From: a virus
Lineage: Duplodnaviria > Heunggongvirae > Uroviricota > Caudoviricetes
Virus record (IMG/VR): IMGVR_UViG_3300029181_000054
DNA: 5,772 nt
Direction: 5' to 3' (one strand)
In this document: one piece after another, positions 1,531 through 5,186 of the stretch
Numbering within the stretch: the first letter of the stretch is position 1
Layout of the letters: the number at the start of each line of letters is the position of its first letter
Made by a program: the position numbers and the translations under genes
Notes under the pieces: model-generated
Seen by the model: only the letters and a program-made list of their open reading frames with translations
What the model was told of the DNA's origin: nothing
Databases searched by the model: none

Positions 1531-1668
1531 AACTAAGCCGCCTCGTTGAAGCGACTGAGGTATAAAGTGTTGTGTTGATTTCAGCTGGTCACACCGACGT
1601 TCACGCGTCCGTTTCACCCCTCGCACTCCCCGAAGCCTGCTGAAATTCAAACTGCGGATCTAAGCGGT

Positions 1669-1718
1669 CATCGCAACGGTGAAACAGGTGGTTACCGTAT
1701 CGTTGTGTCGTTGCGATG
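1669..1718 (-). other. Perfect 10-bp inverted repeat (CATCGCAACG / CGTTGCGATG) with 30-nt spacer in the putative pL leader; potential RNA hairpin or protein binding site
   Basis: Window 1669-1678 CATCGCAACG and 1709-1718 CGTTGCGATG are exact reverse complements. The element begins right after the predicted pL start and ends just before the in-frame stop that opens the downstream ORF. Confidence 0.4.
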
Positions 1719-1721
1719 AAT

Positions 1722-1800
1722 TTATTTAAAACTATAGTTGTTTTATCGTCAACAACAAAAGTTGTTTTATCGGTTGTTTTAAATATAACTGGTTGTATTT
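1722..1800 (-). promoter_or_regulatory. Candidate OL operator cluster and pL promoter (leftward)
   Basis: GTTGTT motifs at 1737-1742, 1761-1766, 1773-1778 (and GGTTGTA 1791-1797), plus an inverted AACAAC at 1751-1756 forming GTTGTT-N8-AACAAC; the same half-site forms the palindrome between cI and cro. Minus-strand -35 TTGACG (window 1747-1752), 17-nt spacer, -10 TTAAAT (window 1724-1729). Confidence 0.45.
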
Positions 1801-1890
1801 AGGATGGATTTATTTTGTGACTTGCATCGCATAGCGATAACTGAAGTGAGGTGTGGTGGTTTTTTGGACGGTATGAGTTATGAGGGGGAG

Positions 1891-1919
1891 GAAAAGAAAA
1901 CCCGGCGCGGTTGCCGGGT
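1891..1919 (-). terminator. Intrinsic (rho-independent) terminator downstream of the lipoprotein gene
   Basis: On the minus strand: GC-rich stem CCCGGC / GCCGGG (window 1901-1906 and 1913-1918) with a 6-nt loop, followed by TTTTCTTTTC. Starts 8 nt after the lipoprotein stop codon (1927-1929). Confidence 0.7.
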
Positions 1920-1926
1920 ATGATTA

Positions 1927-2307
1927 TCAGTCAGCCCAACCTGATTTCGAGTTTATTTGGGTTTCTGACATTGTGTATTTCTTAATCGTGTCATCGTTAA
2001 AAAGAATAGTAAGTTCTTTTTTCGTACCGTTCGTTCCATTATGGAATAATCCATAGAATGGAATAAAAGTGGTGCCATTAACTTTTACTTTTGCAAAGGC
2101 GTACTTCCAGATCTCCTTTCCACTGTCAGTATATGAAACAGCATCAGGAGAACCAAAGTAAGATTTAACCTCATTCTTGGTTGTTTTACCTTCCCGAAGT
2201 TTAGACTGGACACTAATTTCAGTTTCATTTTTGAGTTGCTGGTTGCCTGAAGAAGCACACCCAGCCAATACAGATGCCATCATGGCAGCGATTAGGATTT
2301 TTCTCAT
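1927..2307 (-). CDS. Small secreted lipoprotein (126 aa), AT-rich moron in the rexAB position; function unknown
   Basis: N-terminus MRKILIAAMMASVLAGCASS has a positively charged n-region, a hydrophobic core and a canonical lipobox LAGC (Cys17), with Ala at +2. The mature part has a pattern (SKLREGKTTKNEVKSYFGSPDAV ... LTILFNDDTIKKY) loosely reminiscent of BamE/SmpA-OmlA-type small lipoproteins; this is my recollection, not a search result. Sampled 60-nt segments are about one third GC, against more than half in bet. Confidence 0.85.
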   Translation of the reverse strand: MRKILIAAMMASVLAGCASSGNQQLKNETEISVQSKLREGKTTKNEVKSYFGSPDAVSYTDSGKEIWKYAFAKVKVNGTTFIPFYGLFHNGTNGTKKELTILFNDDTIKKYTMSETQINSKSGWAD

Positions 2308-2536
2308 TTTATGTTTCCATTCATTATAATCAGAAACATCTTAACATAATGATTCGAAATAAAAACCGCTACGAGATAGGGGGACATTTTGCTGACAGTA
2401 GCAACAAATCTCAGCTAACAACGAGAATATTTACTGAAATATGCAAACAGATTTGGCGTTCTTATAGAGAATTTAGTGCAATATCTAATCCGAGTGGTAT
2501 AAACCTTAACCTTCGCTCCCTTAAGTCGTAGATAAA

Positions 2537-3226
2537 TTAACCATGCTTCCTGTACGTCTGCGGCATGCTTCCAATGACCTTACCGAATATGAACACCCGG
2601 TTCATCTCGTCTTTCTCGATCGGGTCCCACGGCGAGTAGCTCTTGTTATCAGAGATAACCAGCAGCTTATCCTTCATCATTTGAAGACGTTTTACATGGG
2701 CAGTGTCGTCGTACAGAAACGCATAGATGCCATCACCGTCGAAAGATTTAACAGTGATATCAACGAACAGCAGGTCACCTGGTTCGATCGTCCCTGACAT
2801 GCTGTCACCTCGCACGTTAATGATGCGGATATTTTCCGCCTTCCTGCCATCGAACATGTGACGAGCATCGTCAAACGAGTACTCAACCGAGCGTAGAACT
2901 TCTACAAACTCACGGTTGATTACACCTGGCCCGGCACTGACTTCTATATCAAGAACGTCAATTTTGAAGTATTTGGAATGGCTGACAGTTGATTGTATTG
3001 GTTGCACTGTACTGTCTGACATATTTCCAACGCCAGAAGATAACCATTCTGCGCGCACACCCAAAGCGTTCGCGATCTCCACGATTTTAGTTGTTTGGTT
3101 AGCTTTCCCTGTTTCGATTTTCTGAATAGCAGCCTGGCTAACCCCGACCAAATCCCCAAGCGCCTTTTGTGTAAGGCCTCGCGCTAATCTGGCTTCTTTA
3201 AGTCTTTCTGAGAGTGTTGTTTTCAT
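2537..3226 (-). CDS. cI: CI-type prophage repressor: N-terminal XRE/Cro-CI helix-turn-helix and C-terminal S24 (LexA-like) autopeptidase domain
   Basis: 229 aa. N-terminal LTQKALGDLVGVSQAAIQKIETGK is a typical HTH. C-terminal RGDSMSGTIEPGDLLFVD (catalytic Ser) and VKRL (catalytic Lys) are S24 motifs, with a candidate Ala-Gly cleavage site in VSAGPG. Divergent from a cro-like gene across a 104-bp operator region. Not lambda cI. Confidence 0.93.
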   Translation of the reverse strand: MKTTLSERLKEARLARGLTQKALGDLVGVSQAAIQKIETGKANQTTKIVEIANALGVRAEWLSSGVGNMSDSTVQPIQSTVSHSKYFKIDVLDIEVSAGPGVINREFVEVLRSVEYSFDDARHMFDGRKAENIRIINVRGDSMSGTIEPGDLLFVDITVKSFDGDGIYAFLYDDTAHVKRLQMMKDKLLVISDNKSYSPWDPIEKDEMNRVFIFGKVIGSMPQTYRKHG

Positions 3227-3330
3227 AGATCAAATGTACAACCAAGGTTTTATTTCATCAAACGAAAATGGTTGTTGACTAAAAACAACCATAGTTTTAA
3301 TCTTGATTCGGATTAACCACGGAGGTTGTT
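3227..3330. promoter_or_regulatory. OR region: divergent pRM / pR promoters with palindromic operator(s)
   Basis: Perfect 25-bp palindrome ATGGTTGTT-gactaaa-AACAACCAT at 3268-3292 overlapping a plus-strand -35 TTGACT (3275-3280), with -10 TAATCT (3298-3303) and GGAGG Shine-Dalgarno at 3321-3325 before cro ATG 3331. A second, weaker site around 3236-3253 (ACAACC, palindrome AACCAAGGTT 3240-3249). Candidate minus-strand pRM: -35 TTGATG (window 3256-3261), -10 TACATT (window 3233-3238), which places the start at about the cI ATG (leaderless, as for lambda pRM). Confidence 0.55.
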
Positions 3331-3561
3331 ATGAACCCAGCAATCAAAACAGCGATCAATATCGTTGGTTCACAAAAGAAACTAGGCGATGCCTGCGAAG
3401 TTTCACAGCAGGCCGTCTATAAGTGGCTTCACAACAAAGCAAAGGTATCCCCTGAACATGTCGGCAGCATTGTTACGGCTACTGGTGGAGTTGTGAAGGC
3501 ATACCAGATTCGCCCGGATCTTCCGAAGTTGTTTCCACACACCGAAAAGAACGCAGCTTAA
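3331..3561 (+). CDS. cro: Cro-like HTH regulator of the YdaS family
   Basis: 76 aa, first gene rightward of the operator region, strong GGAGG Shine-Dalgarno. AIKTAINIVGSQKKLGDACEVSQQAVYKWL ... IRPDLPKLFP resembles my recollection of E. coli Rac YdaS (AIELAGGSQSALARLLGVSRQAVHQW ... RPDLW). Confidence 0.85.
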   Translation: MNPAIKTAINIVGSQKKLGDACEVSQQAVYKWLHNKAKVSPEHVGSIVTATGGVVKAYQIRPDLPKLFPHTEKNAA

Positions 3562-4256: not shown

Positions 4257-5186
4257 ATGGCAAACACTGCTGAGATATTCAATTTTCCAGTGCCGGATGC
4301 GGCACAAAAGGAGCCGCGCGTGGCAGATCTCGATGATGGTTATACGCGCATTGCAAATGAGTTGCTGGAAGCTGTGATGCTGGCCGGATTAACACAGCAC
4401 CAGCTTCTGGTCTTCCTGGCTGTCATGCGCAAAACATATGGCTTTAATAAAAAACTGGATTGGGTGAGCAACGAGCAACTTTCCGAGTTGACCGGGATAT
4501 TGCCGCACAAGTGTTCTGCTGCAAAAAGTGTTCTGGTAAAGCGTGGGATTTTTATTCAGAGCGGGCGGAATATCGGCATTAATAATGTGGTCAGTGAATG
4601 GTCAACATTACCCGAATCAGGTAAGAAAAATAAAGTTTACCTGAAAGAGGTAAATTTACCTGAATCAGGTAAGAAAAGTTTACCCAAATCAGGTAAAGGC
4701 ACTTACCCGAATCAGGTAAACACAAAAGACAAACTAACAAAAGACAATATAAAACCTTTTTCGTCCGAGAATTCTGGCGAATCCTCTGACCAACCAGAAA
4801 ACGATCTTCCTGTGGAGAAACCAGATGCTGCAATTCAGAGCGGCAGCAGGTGGGGGACAGCAGAAGACCTGACCGCCGCAGAGTGGATGTTTGACATGGT
4901 GAAGACCATCGCGCCATCAGCCAGAAAACCGAATTTTGCAGGGTGGGCTAACGATATCCGCCTGATGCGTGAACGTGACGGACGTAACCACCGCGACATG
5001 TGCGTGCTGTTCCGCTGGGCATGCCAGGACAACTTCTGGTCCGGTAACGTGCTGAGTCCGGCCAAACTCCGCGACAAGTGGACCCAGCTCGAAATCAACC
5101 GAAACAAGCAACAGGCTGGCGTGACAGCCGGCAAACCAAAACTCGACCTGACGAACACTGACTGGATTTACGGGGTGGATTTATGA
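4257..5186 (+). CDS. O: Replication initiator O (origin-binding protein), chimeric: non-lambda N-terminal region, lambda-like C-terminal region
   Basis: Start chosen at ATG 4257-4259 (GGGAGG Shine-Dalgarno 4245-4250) because MANTAEIFNF...VADLDDGYTRIANELLEA aligns with the lambda O N-terminus MTNTAKILNF...VADLDDGYARL. The open frame extends upstream to ATG 4167, an alternative start 30 codons longer. The C-terminal part (SGSRWGTAEDLTAAEWMFDMVKTIAPSARKPNFAGWANDIRLMRERDGRNHRDMCVLFRWACQDNFWSGNVLSPAKLRDKWTQLEINRNKQQAGVTAGKPKLDLTNTDWIYGVDL) is near-identical to lambda O from memory. The stop overlaps the P start (ATGA). Confidence 0.92.
   Translation: MANTAEIFNFPVPDAAQKEPRVADLDDGYTRIANELLEAVMLAGLTQHQLLVFLAVMRKTYGFNKKLDWVSNEQLSELTGILPHKCSAAKSVLVKRGIFIQSGRNIGINNVVSEWSTLPESGKKNKVYLKEVNLPESGKKSLPKSGKGTYPNQVNTKDKLTKDNIKPFSSENSGESSDQPENDLPVEKPDAAIQSGSRWGTAEDLTAAEWMFDMVKTIAPSARKPNFAGWANDIRLMRERDGRNHRDMCVLFRWACQDNFWSGNVLSPAKLRDKWTQLEINRNKQQAGVTAGKPKLDLTNTDWIYGVDL
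4608..4720 (+). repeat. ori iterons inside the O gene: five copies (one degenerate) of a 16-bp dyad-symmetric core TACC(C/T)(G/A)AATCAGGTAA
   Basis: Cores at 4609-4624 (TACCCGAATCAGGTAA), 4638-4653 (TACCTGAAAGAGGTAA, two mismatches), 4657-4672 (TACCTGAATCAGGTAA, a perfect palindrome), 4681-4696 (TACCCAAATCAGGTAA) and 4704-4719 (TACCCGAATCAGGTAA), at 19-29 bp spacing. They translate as the repetitive LPESGKK linker of O. Confidence 0.85.
4721..4765. other. AT-rich (A-rich) region flanking the iterons; putative DNA-unwinding part of the phage origin
   Basis: CACAAAAGACAAACTAACAAAAGACAATATAAAACCTTTTT lies directly right of the last iteron. Lambda ori has the same layout of iterons followed by an AT-rich segment within O. 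Confidence 0.6.

What the first reader, a model, noticed from the sequence alone, without database searches (positions are those of the whole stretch)
1891..2536. AT-rich lipoprotein moron between cI and OL/pL (the rexAB slot): candidate lysogen-expressed exclusion or defence gene
Seen: a 126-aa ORF (1927-2307, minus) with a signal peptide and lipobox LAGC, in the same orientation as cI and directly downstream of it, ending 8 nt before a strong intrinsic terminator (1891-1919) that sits just ahead of the candidate OL/pL. The gene and the 230-bp spacer to cI are clearly more AT-rich than flanking phage genes (about one third GC against more than half in sampled segments), which marks an acquired moron. 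A perfect minus-strand TATAAT (window 2323-2328) lies just upstream of the start, and no terminator is evident between cI and the gene, so it could be read from pRM or from its own promoter in the lysogen. Established: lambda carries rexAB in this slot, other prophages carry defence genes next to the repressor, and phage lipoproteins such as T5 Llp and phi80/N15 Cor block receptors to exclude superinfecting phage. Inference: this is a receptor-blocking or envelope-acting exclusion factor. The BamE-like sequence pattern is tentative.
Basis: partly seen in the sequence, partly recalled or inferred. Interest (0 to 1): 0.8.

Follow-up and report, generated by a model that had tools for sequence, protein, structure and literature searches.

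The report
Prophage BamE-like outer-membrane lipoprotein moron
A lambda-like prophage carries, between its repressor gene and its leftward promoter, a small, strongly conserved outer-membrane lipoprotein gene with the fold of the host protein BamE; it hops between the places where phages keep lysogen-expressed exclusion and defence genes, but its function has never been tested.

Summary
The 126-aa ORF (1927-2307, minus), its LAGC lipobox, the terminator, the low GC and the position between cI and OL/pL are all present.

**Why it is a real moron.**
- A sibling phage with the same cI has 122 bp in place of the 619-bp cassette.
- Other siblings carry toxin-antitoxin pairs in that slot.
- Close homologues sit in at least four prophage slots, plus the ROD21 island.
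- Median dN/dS is about 0.05.

The TATAAT is not conserved. The promoter-like element that travels with the gene has its -10, TAAGAT, at 2343-2338. In 16 relatives the gene starts 47-48 nt after cI, so there it is co-transcribed with cI.

**Function.** Phage exclusion at the envelope is the best guess (about 0.4). It rests on position and analogy only.

The parts
1927..2307 (-). CDS of the 126-aa pre-lipoprotein (mature about 110 aa, 12.3 kDa, pI about 9); PHROG 3135, PGAP name 'SEN1984 family lipoprotein'; BamE/SmpA-OmlA-like fold
2257..2307 (-). Signal peptide and lipobox (MRK / ILIAAMMASV / LAGC, Cys17; +2 Ala, so Lol sorting to the outer membrane is expected)
   Evidence: the +2 rule is established knowledge
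1890..1919 (-). Intrinsic terminator (ACCCGGC-AACCGC-GCCGGGT + TTTTCTTTT). It is shared with the sibling phage that lacks the gene, so it is the resident end of the immunity transcription unit.
2338..2365 (-). Promoter-like element that travels with the gene in other phages: -10 TAAGAT at 2343-2338, 16-nt spacer, weak -35 TTTTTA at 2365-2360. The predicted start is near 2331.
   Evidence: conserved in 35 distinct upstream sequences; function not tested
2323..2328 (-). It is a local variant of the 10-bp palindrome GATTGCAATC found in relatives, and probably lies in the 5' UTR rather than being a promoter.
2314..2318 (-). Shine-Dalgarno GGAAA, 6 nt before the ATG
   Evidence: conserved as GGA(A/T)
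2308..2536 (-). 229-nt AT-rich spacer between the cI stop and the lipoprotein start. No terminator. The + strand ORF 2274-2531 has no PHROG match.
1919..2537 (.). The 619-bp cassette that is replaced by 122 bp in Escherichia phage PhiR34_1 (presence/absence polymorphism)
2537..3226 (-). cI-type repressor (HTH_3 + Peptidase_S24), the upstream gene of the same transcription unit
1726..1781 (-). OL/pL: operator repeats and a promoter that are an inverted copy of OR/pR (3257-3300)

Best explanation
**Shown**
- The gene is a horizontally mobile moron that encodes an outer-membrane lipoprotein.
- Its globular part is a divergent BamE/SmpA-OmlA domain.
- It is the last gene of the cI immunity unit and ends at the unit's terminator just before OL/pL.

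**Inferred: expression**
- It is expressed in the lysogen, by read-through from the cI promoters and perhaps also from its own weak promoter.

**Inferred: location**
- The Lol system takes it to the inner leaflet of the outer membrane.

**Inferred: action**
- From there it binds a conserved envelope component of Enterobacterales. The likeliest target is the periplasmic face of an outer-membrane beta-barrel, as BamE does with BamA and TpgA does with AtaA.

**Most likely consequence (weakest step)**
- It excludes superinfecting phages, by altering a receptor or by blocking genome entry across the periplasm. This would be functionally like T5 Llp, Cor or HK97 gp15.
For: **Structure and family**
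- PHROG 3135 matches at E 1e-47 over the full length.
- The AF2 model has pLDDT 86.
- hhalign against BamE gives 92% probability, E 5.7e-7.
- 66 of 77 relatives hit Pfam BamE at E<=0.01.

**Lipoprotein**
-.

**Mobility**
- The cassette is absent from PhiR34_1 and Turner.
- Of 87 loci, 58 have the gene downstream of a CI-type repressor of several immunity types. 26 have it between a DUF6246 gene and the tape-measure gene. 3 have it downstream of an Arc/Mnt-type repressor next to a P22-like tailspike.
- In a Providencia prophage it lies between Q and the holin.
- It is also in the ROD21 island.
- Gene GC is below flank GC in 86 of 87 loci.

**Lysogen expression (inferred)**
- In 16 loci the gene starts 47-48 nt after the cI stop.
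- The window has no terminator between cI and the gene.
- Elsewhere the gene is a terminator-promoter-gene-terminator unit.

**Exclusion or defence by association**
- In Salmonella phage S107 the gene between cI and the lipoprotein matches PADLOC BstA at E 9e-100.
- Sibling phages carry toxin-antitoxin cargo in the same slot.

**Binding mode by analogy**
- BamE binds POTRA-5 and the periplasmic turns of BamA (PMC13067283).
- The SmpA/OmlA domain of TpgA binds the AtaA barrel and not BAM (PMC12523085).

**Conserved target**
- Median dN/dS is 0.047, and amino-acid identity stays at 70-83% across at least 12 enterobacterial genera.
Against: - There is no experimental datum on expression, localisation or phenotype.
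- There is no PADLOC match, and no homology to Cor, Llp or Bor beyond the signal peptide.
- Very strong purifying selection is not what is usually seen for proteins in an arms race with phage proteins. It fits a host-directed or housekeeping-like role equally well.
- The phage already carries several host-fitness envelope morons: bor, lom, an omptin and a porin.
- The family also sits in a Salmonella pathogenicity island.
- The -35 of the conserved promoter is weak in this window.
Confidence: 0.4

Rival explanations
1. BamE mimic acting on the BAM complex. The lipoprotein would dock where BamE docks (BamA POTRA-5 and BamD), or compete with BamE, and change BamA's conformation or activity. That could hide BamA from BamA-dependent phages and contact-dependent toxins. 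It could also tune assembly of outer-membrane proteins, including the prophage's own porin, Lom and omptin.
For: - BamE is the closest solved fold and profile match.
- BamE modulates BamA conformation (PMC13067283).
- The family keeps a nearly invariant G21-N22 near the N-terminus. This recalls the QGN motif of BamE (own knowledge, not tested).
- PhiR26_1 encodes a porin, Lom and an omptin.
- Strong purifying selection fits a conserved essential target.
- From own knowledge: short-tailed Stx phages and CdiA-EC93 use BamA as receptor.
Against: - The protein is below Pfam's BamE gathering score (21.1 against 23.2 bits).
- Identity to BamE is 20-25%.
- A conserved 12-residue insertion and an extra C-terminal strand are absent from BamE.
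- Another SmpA/OmlA domain, TpgA-N, has the same fold yet does not bind BAM.
- BamA/BamD contact residues could not be compared.
Confidence: 0.15
2. Host-fitness or virulence conversion factor unrelated to phages. It would be an envelope lipoprotein that improves serum, bile, osmotic or envelope-stress tolerance or host colonisation, in the manner of lambda Bor or OsmE.
For: - A family member, SEN1984, lies in the excisable pathogenicity island ROD21 of S. Enteritidis.
- The carrier phage holds bor, lom and an omptin.
- dN/dS of about 0.05 suggests a stable host-directed function.
- A distant relative is an ordinary chromosomal gene.
Against: - No phenotype is reported for SEN1984.
- Its preferred slots are those known for exclusion and defence cargo.
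- Only 78 of 5426 complete E. coli genomes carry it.
Confidence: 0.2
3. Periplasmic inhibitor or immunity protein. The BamE/BLIP-type fold would be used as a tight-binding decoy or inhibitor of an incoming periplasm-acting protein, such as a colicin or T6SS effector, a muralytic enzyme, or a tape-measure or tail-tip protein of an infecting phage.
For: - The conserved but low-confidence loop 77-90 (FIP motif) looks like a binding loop.
- In 26 loci the gene sits close upstream of the tape-measure gene, directly or with one or two small genes between.
Against: - No cognate toxin gene is adjacent in any slot.
- Strong conservation across genera argues against a rapidly evolving foreign target.
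- The fold similarity to BLIP and BtiO is generic.
Confidence: 0.1
4. Non-functional hitch-hiker or mis-called ORF in an AT-rich spacer.
For: - The region is AT-rich.
- The gene is absent from close sibling phages.
Against: - Median dN/dS is 0.047 over 378 pairs.
- The family is large: 1325 clusters at 50% identity.
- The Cys is invariant and the motifs are conserved.
- The fold is predicted with confidence.
- The ORF is full-length in every locus examined.
Confidence: 0.02

Closest known systems
SEN1984 family lipoprotein (PGAP name) / PHROG 3135; SEN1984 of the ROD21 island of Salmonella Enteritidis
   Same: - It belongs to the same sequence family (phrog_3135 E 1e-47).
- PGAP gives that name to the matching E. 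coli prophage locus (99.7% nucleotide identity).
- SEN1984 is a 378-nt gene for an exported lipoprotein that Phyre2 called BamE-like.
   Different: - SEN1984 sits in an integrative island, not in a phage immunity region.
- No function is known for either, so membership says nothing about mechanism.
BamE (SmpA), lipoprotein subunit of the beta-barrel assembly machine; Pfam PF04355
   Same: - Both are outer-membrane lipoproteins of about 110 residues.
- They share the G-x-T...G-x-P...W-x-Y core motifs.
   Different: - It is below Pfam's cut-off, with 20-25% identity.
- It has a conserved 12-residue loop insertion and an additional C-terminal strand.
- It is prophage-borne and present in 1.4% of complete E. 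coli genomes, not a core chromosomal gene.
- Binding to BamA or BamD is untested.
Phage exclusion lipoproteins T5 Llp and phi80/N15/HK022 Cor (FhuA blockers)
   Same: - All are small phage-encoded outer-membrane lipoproteins.
- All are expected to be made in the lysogen or early in infection.
- A periplasm-side action on an outer-membrane protein is plausible for all.
   Different: - There is no sequence relationship. The Cor PHROG matches only the signal peptide, E 0.055.
- The fold is different.
- The receptor is unknown and no exclusion phenotype has been shown.
HK97 gp15 moron (inner-membrane exclusion protein) and lambda rexAB / P22 sieA-type lysogen-expressed cargo
   Same: - It uses the same genomic logic. 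It occupies the cI-to-pL slot here and, in 26 related loci, a tail slot before the tape-measure gene that looks like the gp15 slot.
- It shows a terminator-promoter-gene-terminator architecture in many loci.
- It has low GC.
   Different: - The protein is unrelated, and it is in the outer membrane rather than the inner membrane or cytoplasm.
- The function is untested.
TpgA N-terminal SmpA/OmlA domain (Acinetobacter), partner of the AtaA autotransporter barrel
   Same: - It shows that a BamE-fold domain can bind the periplasmic face of a specific outer-membrane barrel other than BamA.
   Different: - TpgA is periplasmic and carries an OmpA_C domain.
- It is encoded in an operon with its partner. 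No partner gene accompanies the phage lipoprotein.

Membership tests
SEN1984 family lipoprotein / PHROG 3135 | Full-length profile match to the family model | tested here: met
   phrog_3135 matches at E 1.1e-47, residues 1-124 against profile positions 1-114 of 114.
SEN1984 family lipoprotein / PHROG 3135 | NCBIfam model hit above its cut-off | tested here: inconclusive
   NCBIfam release 20.0 returned no such model; the best hit was Ag473, 29.7 bits against a cut-off of 100. PGAP annotation of the matching locus (99.7% nucleotide identity) in three RefSeq genomes uses the name, presumably from a later release.
SEN1984 family lipoprotein / PHROG 3135 | N-terminal lipobox with invariant Cys | tested here: met
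   LAGC with Cys17. The Cys is invariant in 77 sequences, and 268 of 294 homologues have a lipobox.
BamE (functional BAM subunit, Pfam PF04355) | Score at or above Pfam's gathering threshold | tested here: not met
   21.1 bits against 23.2. However, 66 of 77 relatives match at E<=0.01, best 4e-9, and hhalign against E. coli BamE gives 92% probability. It is homologous at superfamily level.
BamE (functional BAM subunit, Pfam PF04355) | alpha-alpha-beta-beta-beta fold | tested here: met
BamE (functional BAM subunit, Pfam PF04355) | Conserved residues that contact BamA POTRA-5 and BamD | not testable with these tools
   The paper that defines the contacts (PMC10528117) is not held. Neither coordinates nor multimer prediction were available.
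BamE (functional BAM subunit, Pfam PF04355) | Core, chromosomal, one per genome | tested here: not met
   It is present in 78 of 5426 complete E. coli genomes, and in every listed row it lies beside a prophage repressor gene. The close homologues inspected lie in prophages.
Moron (Juhala/Hendrix sense) | Present or absent between otherwise collinear phages | tested here: met
   Window 1919-2537 is replaced by 122 bp in PhiR34_1, with 97-98% identity on both sides.
Moron (Juhala/Hendrix sense) | Base composition unlike the neighbours | tested here: met
   Gene GC is 0.383 against 0.51-0.52 for the flanks. The gene is lower than its flanks in 86 of 87 loci.
Moron (Juhala/Hendrix sense) | Own promoter and terminator | tested here: inconclusive
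   The terminator is clear but is shared with the cassette-less sibling. A conserved TTGnnn-16/17-TAnnAT element accompanies the gene in 35 distinct upstream sequences, often right after a terminator. In this window its -35 is only TTTTTA. No transcript data exist.
Moron (Juhala/Hendrix sense) | Expressed from the repressed prophage | not testable with these tools
   This needs RNA-seq or a reporter in the lysogen. Indirect support: in 16 loci the gene is 47-48 nt downstream of the cI stop.
Receptor-blocking exclusion lipoproteins (Llp, Cor) | Sequence or fold relationship to Llp or Cor | tested here: not met
   The Cor PHROG 1119 matches at E 0.055, on residues 1-47 only. No Llp or Cor structure appears among the fold hits.
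Receptor-blocking exclusion lipoproteins (Llp, Cor) | Blocks adsorption or DNA entry when expressed alone | not testable with these tools
   This is an experimental question.
Known anti-phage defence systems (PADLOC-DB v2) | Match to any defence-protein model | tested here: not met
   0 families at E<=10.

The most novel reading that the evidence does not exclude
The lipoprotein is a phage-made BamE surrogate. It docks on BamA and BamD from the periplasm and changes the conformation or surface exposure of BamA. This would be the first viral protein known to target the beta-barrel assembly machine. It could shut out BamA-dependent phages (such as short-tailed Stx phages) and contact-dependent inhibition toxins, or favour assembly of the prophage's own outer-membrane proteins.
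Probability: 0.12. Interest if true: 0.8.

Novelty: new variant of a known kind. Interest (0 to 1): 0.5.

Why it matters
The slot between cI and pL, and the slot before the tape-measure gene, are where temperate phages keep genes that change how the lysogen meets other phages and its environment.

This family is:
- common in Enterobacterales prophages,
- unusually well conserved for a moron,
- built on the fold of a BAM subunit,
- without any tested function.

A single cloning experiment with a phage panel, plus a pull-down, could add a new fold to the short list of outer-membrane exclusion lipoproteins. Less likely but more interesting, it could reveal a viral handle on outer-membrane protein assembly.

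It would also correct the 'outer membrane protein assembly factor BamE' label that most RefSeq E. coli genomes with this locus currently give the gene.

Tried and rejected
There is no -35 on that strand. It ends 15 nt from the ATG. It is replaced by GATTGCAATC in most relatives.
- **SD-sequestering 5'-UTR hairpin (AUGUUUCU/GGAAACAU): not supported as conserved.** In this window it folds at -6.6 kcal/mol, z -2.0. RNAalifold finds no consensus structure in 23 diverse leaders. Explicit pair counting gives 73% paired against 68.5% in shuffles.
- **Rfam scan of 1600-3400:** only chance-level hits.
- **Opposite-strand ORFs (2274-2531, 1880-2056, 2177-2329):** no PHROG match, so they are treated as spurious.
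- **Direct sequence search of the PDB:** nothing. Only the family profile reaches BamE, and weakly (E 0.026).
- **PADLOC:** nothing.
- **NCBIfam:** only signal-peptide-level hits.
- **Second database search with the alignment:** it mostly returned the same close homologues and added little.
- **Literature searches:** PhiR26_1, GevT/GevA, BamE-like prophage, and OmlA + prophage + exclusion found nothing relevant.
- **Unavailable resources:** the paper that defines BamE contact residues is not held, and the afdb50 fold library was not available.
- **BFVD fold search:** it found only unannotated Pseudomonas phage SmpA/OmlA lipoproteins.
Full report
**1. Observation**

- The ORF 1927-2307 (minus strand, 126 aa) is listed.
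- Its N-terminus is MRK / ILIAAMMASV / LAGC, a textbook lipoprotein signal with Cys17.
- That Cys is invariant in a 77-sequence family alignment. 268 of 294 homologues carry a lipobox, and none has Asp at +2. By the +2 rule (established knowledge), the protein should go to the outer membrane.
- The gene follows cI (2537-3226; HTH_3 + Peptidase_S24) on the same strand after 229 nt.
- It stops 7-8 nt before a terminator. The scan finds the terminator at 1919-1900 plus a T-tract. It folds at -14.1 kcal/mol with z -2.69.
- GC is 0.383 in the gene and 0.341 in the spacer. It is 0.47 in cI and 0.51-0.52 in the flanks.
- The sequence 1726-1770 is an inverted copy of the operator/promoter sequence at 3257-3300.

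**2. Where the window comes from**

- Window 1600-3300 is 99.7% identical to Escherichia phage PhiR26_1 (PV340555). This is a lambda-like phage whose depositors annotated the gene only as 'hypothetical protein / putative lipoprotein'.
- The same 711-bp locus occurs in 78 of 5426 complete E. coli genomes, always on the chromosome. In every listed row it lies beside a prophage repressor gene.
- PGAP calls it 'outer membrane protein assembly factor BamE' in most records and 'SEN1984 family lipoprotein' in the newest.
- The rest of the window reads, from left to right: bet, gam, kil, then no N gene, then OL/pL, the lipoprotein gene, cI and OR. After that come a YdaS-type cro, a YdaT-type cII, O with five iterons, and the start of P.

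**3. The protein**

*Family size and motifs*
- It matches PHROG 3135 (unknown function) over its full length at E 1e-47.
- An exhaustive HMMER search finds 1325 50%-identity clusters at E<=1e-3 and 307 at E<=1e-10. Nearly all are 125-135 aa.
- Nearly invariant positions are C17, G21, G52, P54, W67, Y69, P83, F103 and G123.

*Relation to BamE by sequence*
- The protein itself scores below Pfam's BamE cut-off (21.1 against 23.2 bits).
- However, 66 of 77 relatives hit that model at E<=0.01.
- The family profile aligns with E. coli BamE at 92% probability.

*Relation to BamE by structure*
- An AlphaFold2 model built on the family alignment has pLDDT 86.

*Differences from BamE*
- Identity is 20-25%.
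- There is a conserved 12-residue insertion, the 'FIP' loop at residues 78-90. It is conserved but modelled at low confidence.
- There is an additional C-terminal strand.

The protein is therefore a member of the BamE/SmpA-OmlA superfamily, but I do not file it as BamE.

**4. It is a genuine, mobile moron**

*Same slot, different cargo*
- PhiR34_1 and Turner share cI and pL with the window at 96-98% identity. They have 122 bp where the window has the 619-bp cassette 1919-2537, and they keep the same terminator.
- Other siblings fill the slot with HipA/HipD, with GevT/GevA, or with two unknown genes.

*Same gene, different slots*

I classified the neighbours of 87 related loci, mostly IMG/VR contigs.

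| Slot | Loci |
|---|---|
| Downstream of a CI-type repressor (three S24 immunity types and one short CI) | 58 |
| Tail operon, between a DUF6246 gene and the tape-measure gene | 26 |
| Downstream of an Arc/Mnt-type repressor, next to a P22-like tailspike | 3 |

- Serratia prophages use the tail slot.
- A Providencia prophage has the gene between Q and the holin.
- SEN1984 lies in the ROD21 island of S. Enteritidis.
- Gene GC is below flank GC in 86 of 87 loci.
- One distant (39%) relative is an ordinary chromosomal gene. The phage clade may therefore descend from a bacterial lipoprotein.

**5. Selection**

- Median pairwise dN/dS is 0.047 over 378 usable pairs.
- Synonymous sites are saturated between the E. 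coli copy and most others, while proteins stay 70-83% identical.
- Close relatives are scattered over at least 12 enterobacterial genera.
- This is a working protein with a constrained, probably conserved, partner.

**6. Expression signals**

- The TATAAT (2328-2323) is real.
- It has no -35 on that strand.
- It ends 15 nt from the ATG.
- It is a local variant of the palindrome GATTGCAATC seen in most relatives.

*What travels with the gene*
- An element TTG(ACC/CAA/TCG)-16/17 nt-TA(A/G/C)(G/C)AT lies 36-41 nt before the ATG.
- It is found in both the immunity and tail slots, in 35 distinct upstream sequences.
- It often lies immediately after an upstream terminator. That is the classic moron layout.
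- In the window the -10 is TAAGAT (2343-2338) and the -35 is only TTTTTA.
- The upstream terminator seen in relatives is absent from the window.

*Operon arrangement in relatives*
- In 16 related loci the gene starts 47-48 nt after the stop codon of a cI with the same C-terminus. That leaves no room for a promoter.
- Co-transcription with the repressor is thus an established arrangement for this family.

*Inference for the window*
- In the window the gene is probably read from the cI promoters, with or without help from its own weak promoter.
- It ends at the immunity terminator.
- This is inference; no transcript data were available.

**7. What it does**

Nothing in the searchable literature tests this family. 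The only statements found are that SEN1984 is a lipoprotein that Phyre2 calls BamE-like.

*Best explanation (about 0.4): an envelope-acting exclusion factor*

It would be tethered to the inner leaflet of the outer membrane and bind a conserved envelope protein. Three lines of evidence support this.
- Every slot it uses is one where lysogen-expressed exclusion or defence cargo is known or found here. PADLOC BstA (E 9e-100) sits between cI and the lipoprotein in Salmonella phage S107. Sibling phages carry toxin-antitoxin cargo. HK97 gp15 occupies a matching tail slot.
- There are precedents for outer-membrane exclusion lipoproteins, namely Llp and Cor (own knowledge; Cor is described).
- BamE-fold domains dock on the periplasmic side of beta-barrels. 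BamE docks on BamA. TpgA docks on AtaA and not on BAM.

*Rivals*

| Rival | Confidence | Main reason |
|---|---|---|
| True BamE surrogate acting on BAM | 0.15 | BamE is the closest fold and profile match |
| Bor/OsmE-like host-fitness factor | 0.20 | ROD21 location, the phage's other envelope morons, very low dN/dS |
| Junk ORF | 0.02 | Excluded by selection and conservation |

**8. Comparison and novelty**

- As a kind of thing, a lysogen-expressed envelope moron in a known hot spot, it is familiar.
- As a protein it is unrelated to Llp, Cor, Bor, gp15, Rex or Sie proteins.
- Its family has database names but no function.
- I rate it a new variant of a known kind, with interest 0.5. It is a well-defined, cheap-to-test candidate rather than a surprise.
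- The most novel reading not excluded is a viral BamE surrogate that manipulates BamA (probability about 0.12).
- The 'BamE' product name in most RefSeq records should be regarded as an over-annotation.

Noticed in passing
window 1618-1726 (minus strand): There is no N gene between pL and kil. The pL leader folds into two stem-loops, the first with an 11-bp stem (CAUCGCAACGA...CGUUGCGAUG). The fold is -34 kcal/mol, z -2.5. It is 93-96% conserved in other lambda-like coliphages. It recalls the HK022 put antitermination RNA (own knowledge). Rfam finds nothing.
   Followed up: partly
window 1726-1781 and 3257-3300: OL/pL and OR/pR are inverted copies of each other, including a 19-nt arm at 95%. 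OR also contains a perfect 9-bp inverted repeat, ATGGTTGTT-N7-AACAACCAT.
   Followed up: partly
L098 (PhiR5_1), L099 (PhiR47_2), L100 (PhiR68_2), L002 (PhiR34_1): In sibling phages with homologous cI and pL, the cI-to-pL slot holds HipA/HipD, GevT/GevA or two unknown genes, or is empty. It is a variable cargo hot spot.
   Followed up: yes
L003 2989-3756 (Salmonella phage S107): The gene between cI and the lipoprotein homologue matches PADLOC BstA at E 9e-100. In L046 the same position holds what looks, from reading the two sequences only, like a HicA/HicB pair (not searched against any library).
   Followed up: partly
L059, L078, L080, L083 and others, just downstream of the lipoprotein gene: In the tail slot before the tape-measure gene, the neighbours are other small proteins. 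Their N-termini read like signal peptides or lipoboxes (clusters c69, c125, c126, c176; read, not run through a predictor). KilA-N and SocA_Panacea genes are also found there. It is a multi-moron island of secreted proteins.
   Followed up: partly
window 2300-2345 (minus strand): An 8-bp hairpin, AUGUUUCU/GGAAACAU, would sequester the Shine-Dalgarno sequence (-6.6 kcal/mol, z -2.0). Its 5' arm overlaps the conserved -10, so it would exist only in read-through transcripts from cI. Covariation support across relatives is weak.
   Followed up: yes
L005-L009 8413-8637; L003 4423-4650: In Citrobacter and Salmonella prophages a small opposite-strand gene (68-75 aa; PHROG 3975 or 3946, unknown function) lies between the lipoprotein gene and the kil or N side. 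The window has no counterpart.
   Followed up: partly
window 4608-4724: There are five 22-nt iterons (TTACCCGAATCAGGTAAG...) inside the O gene, followed by an AT-rich stretch. This is the replication origin.
   Followed up: partly
L090 (PhiR26_1 whole genome): The carrier phage is loaded with envelope and defence morons: PD-lambda-1, an OmpD-like porin, Bor, Lom and an omptin.
   Followed up: no
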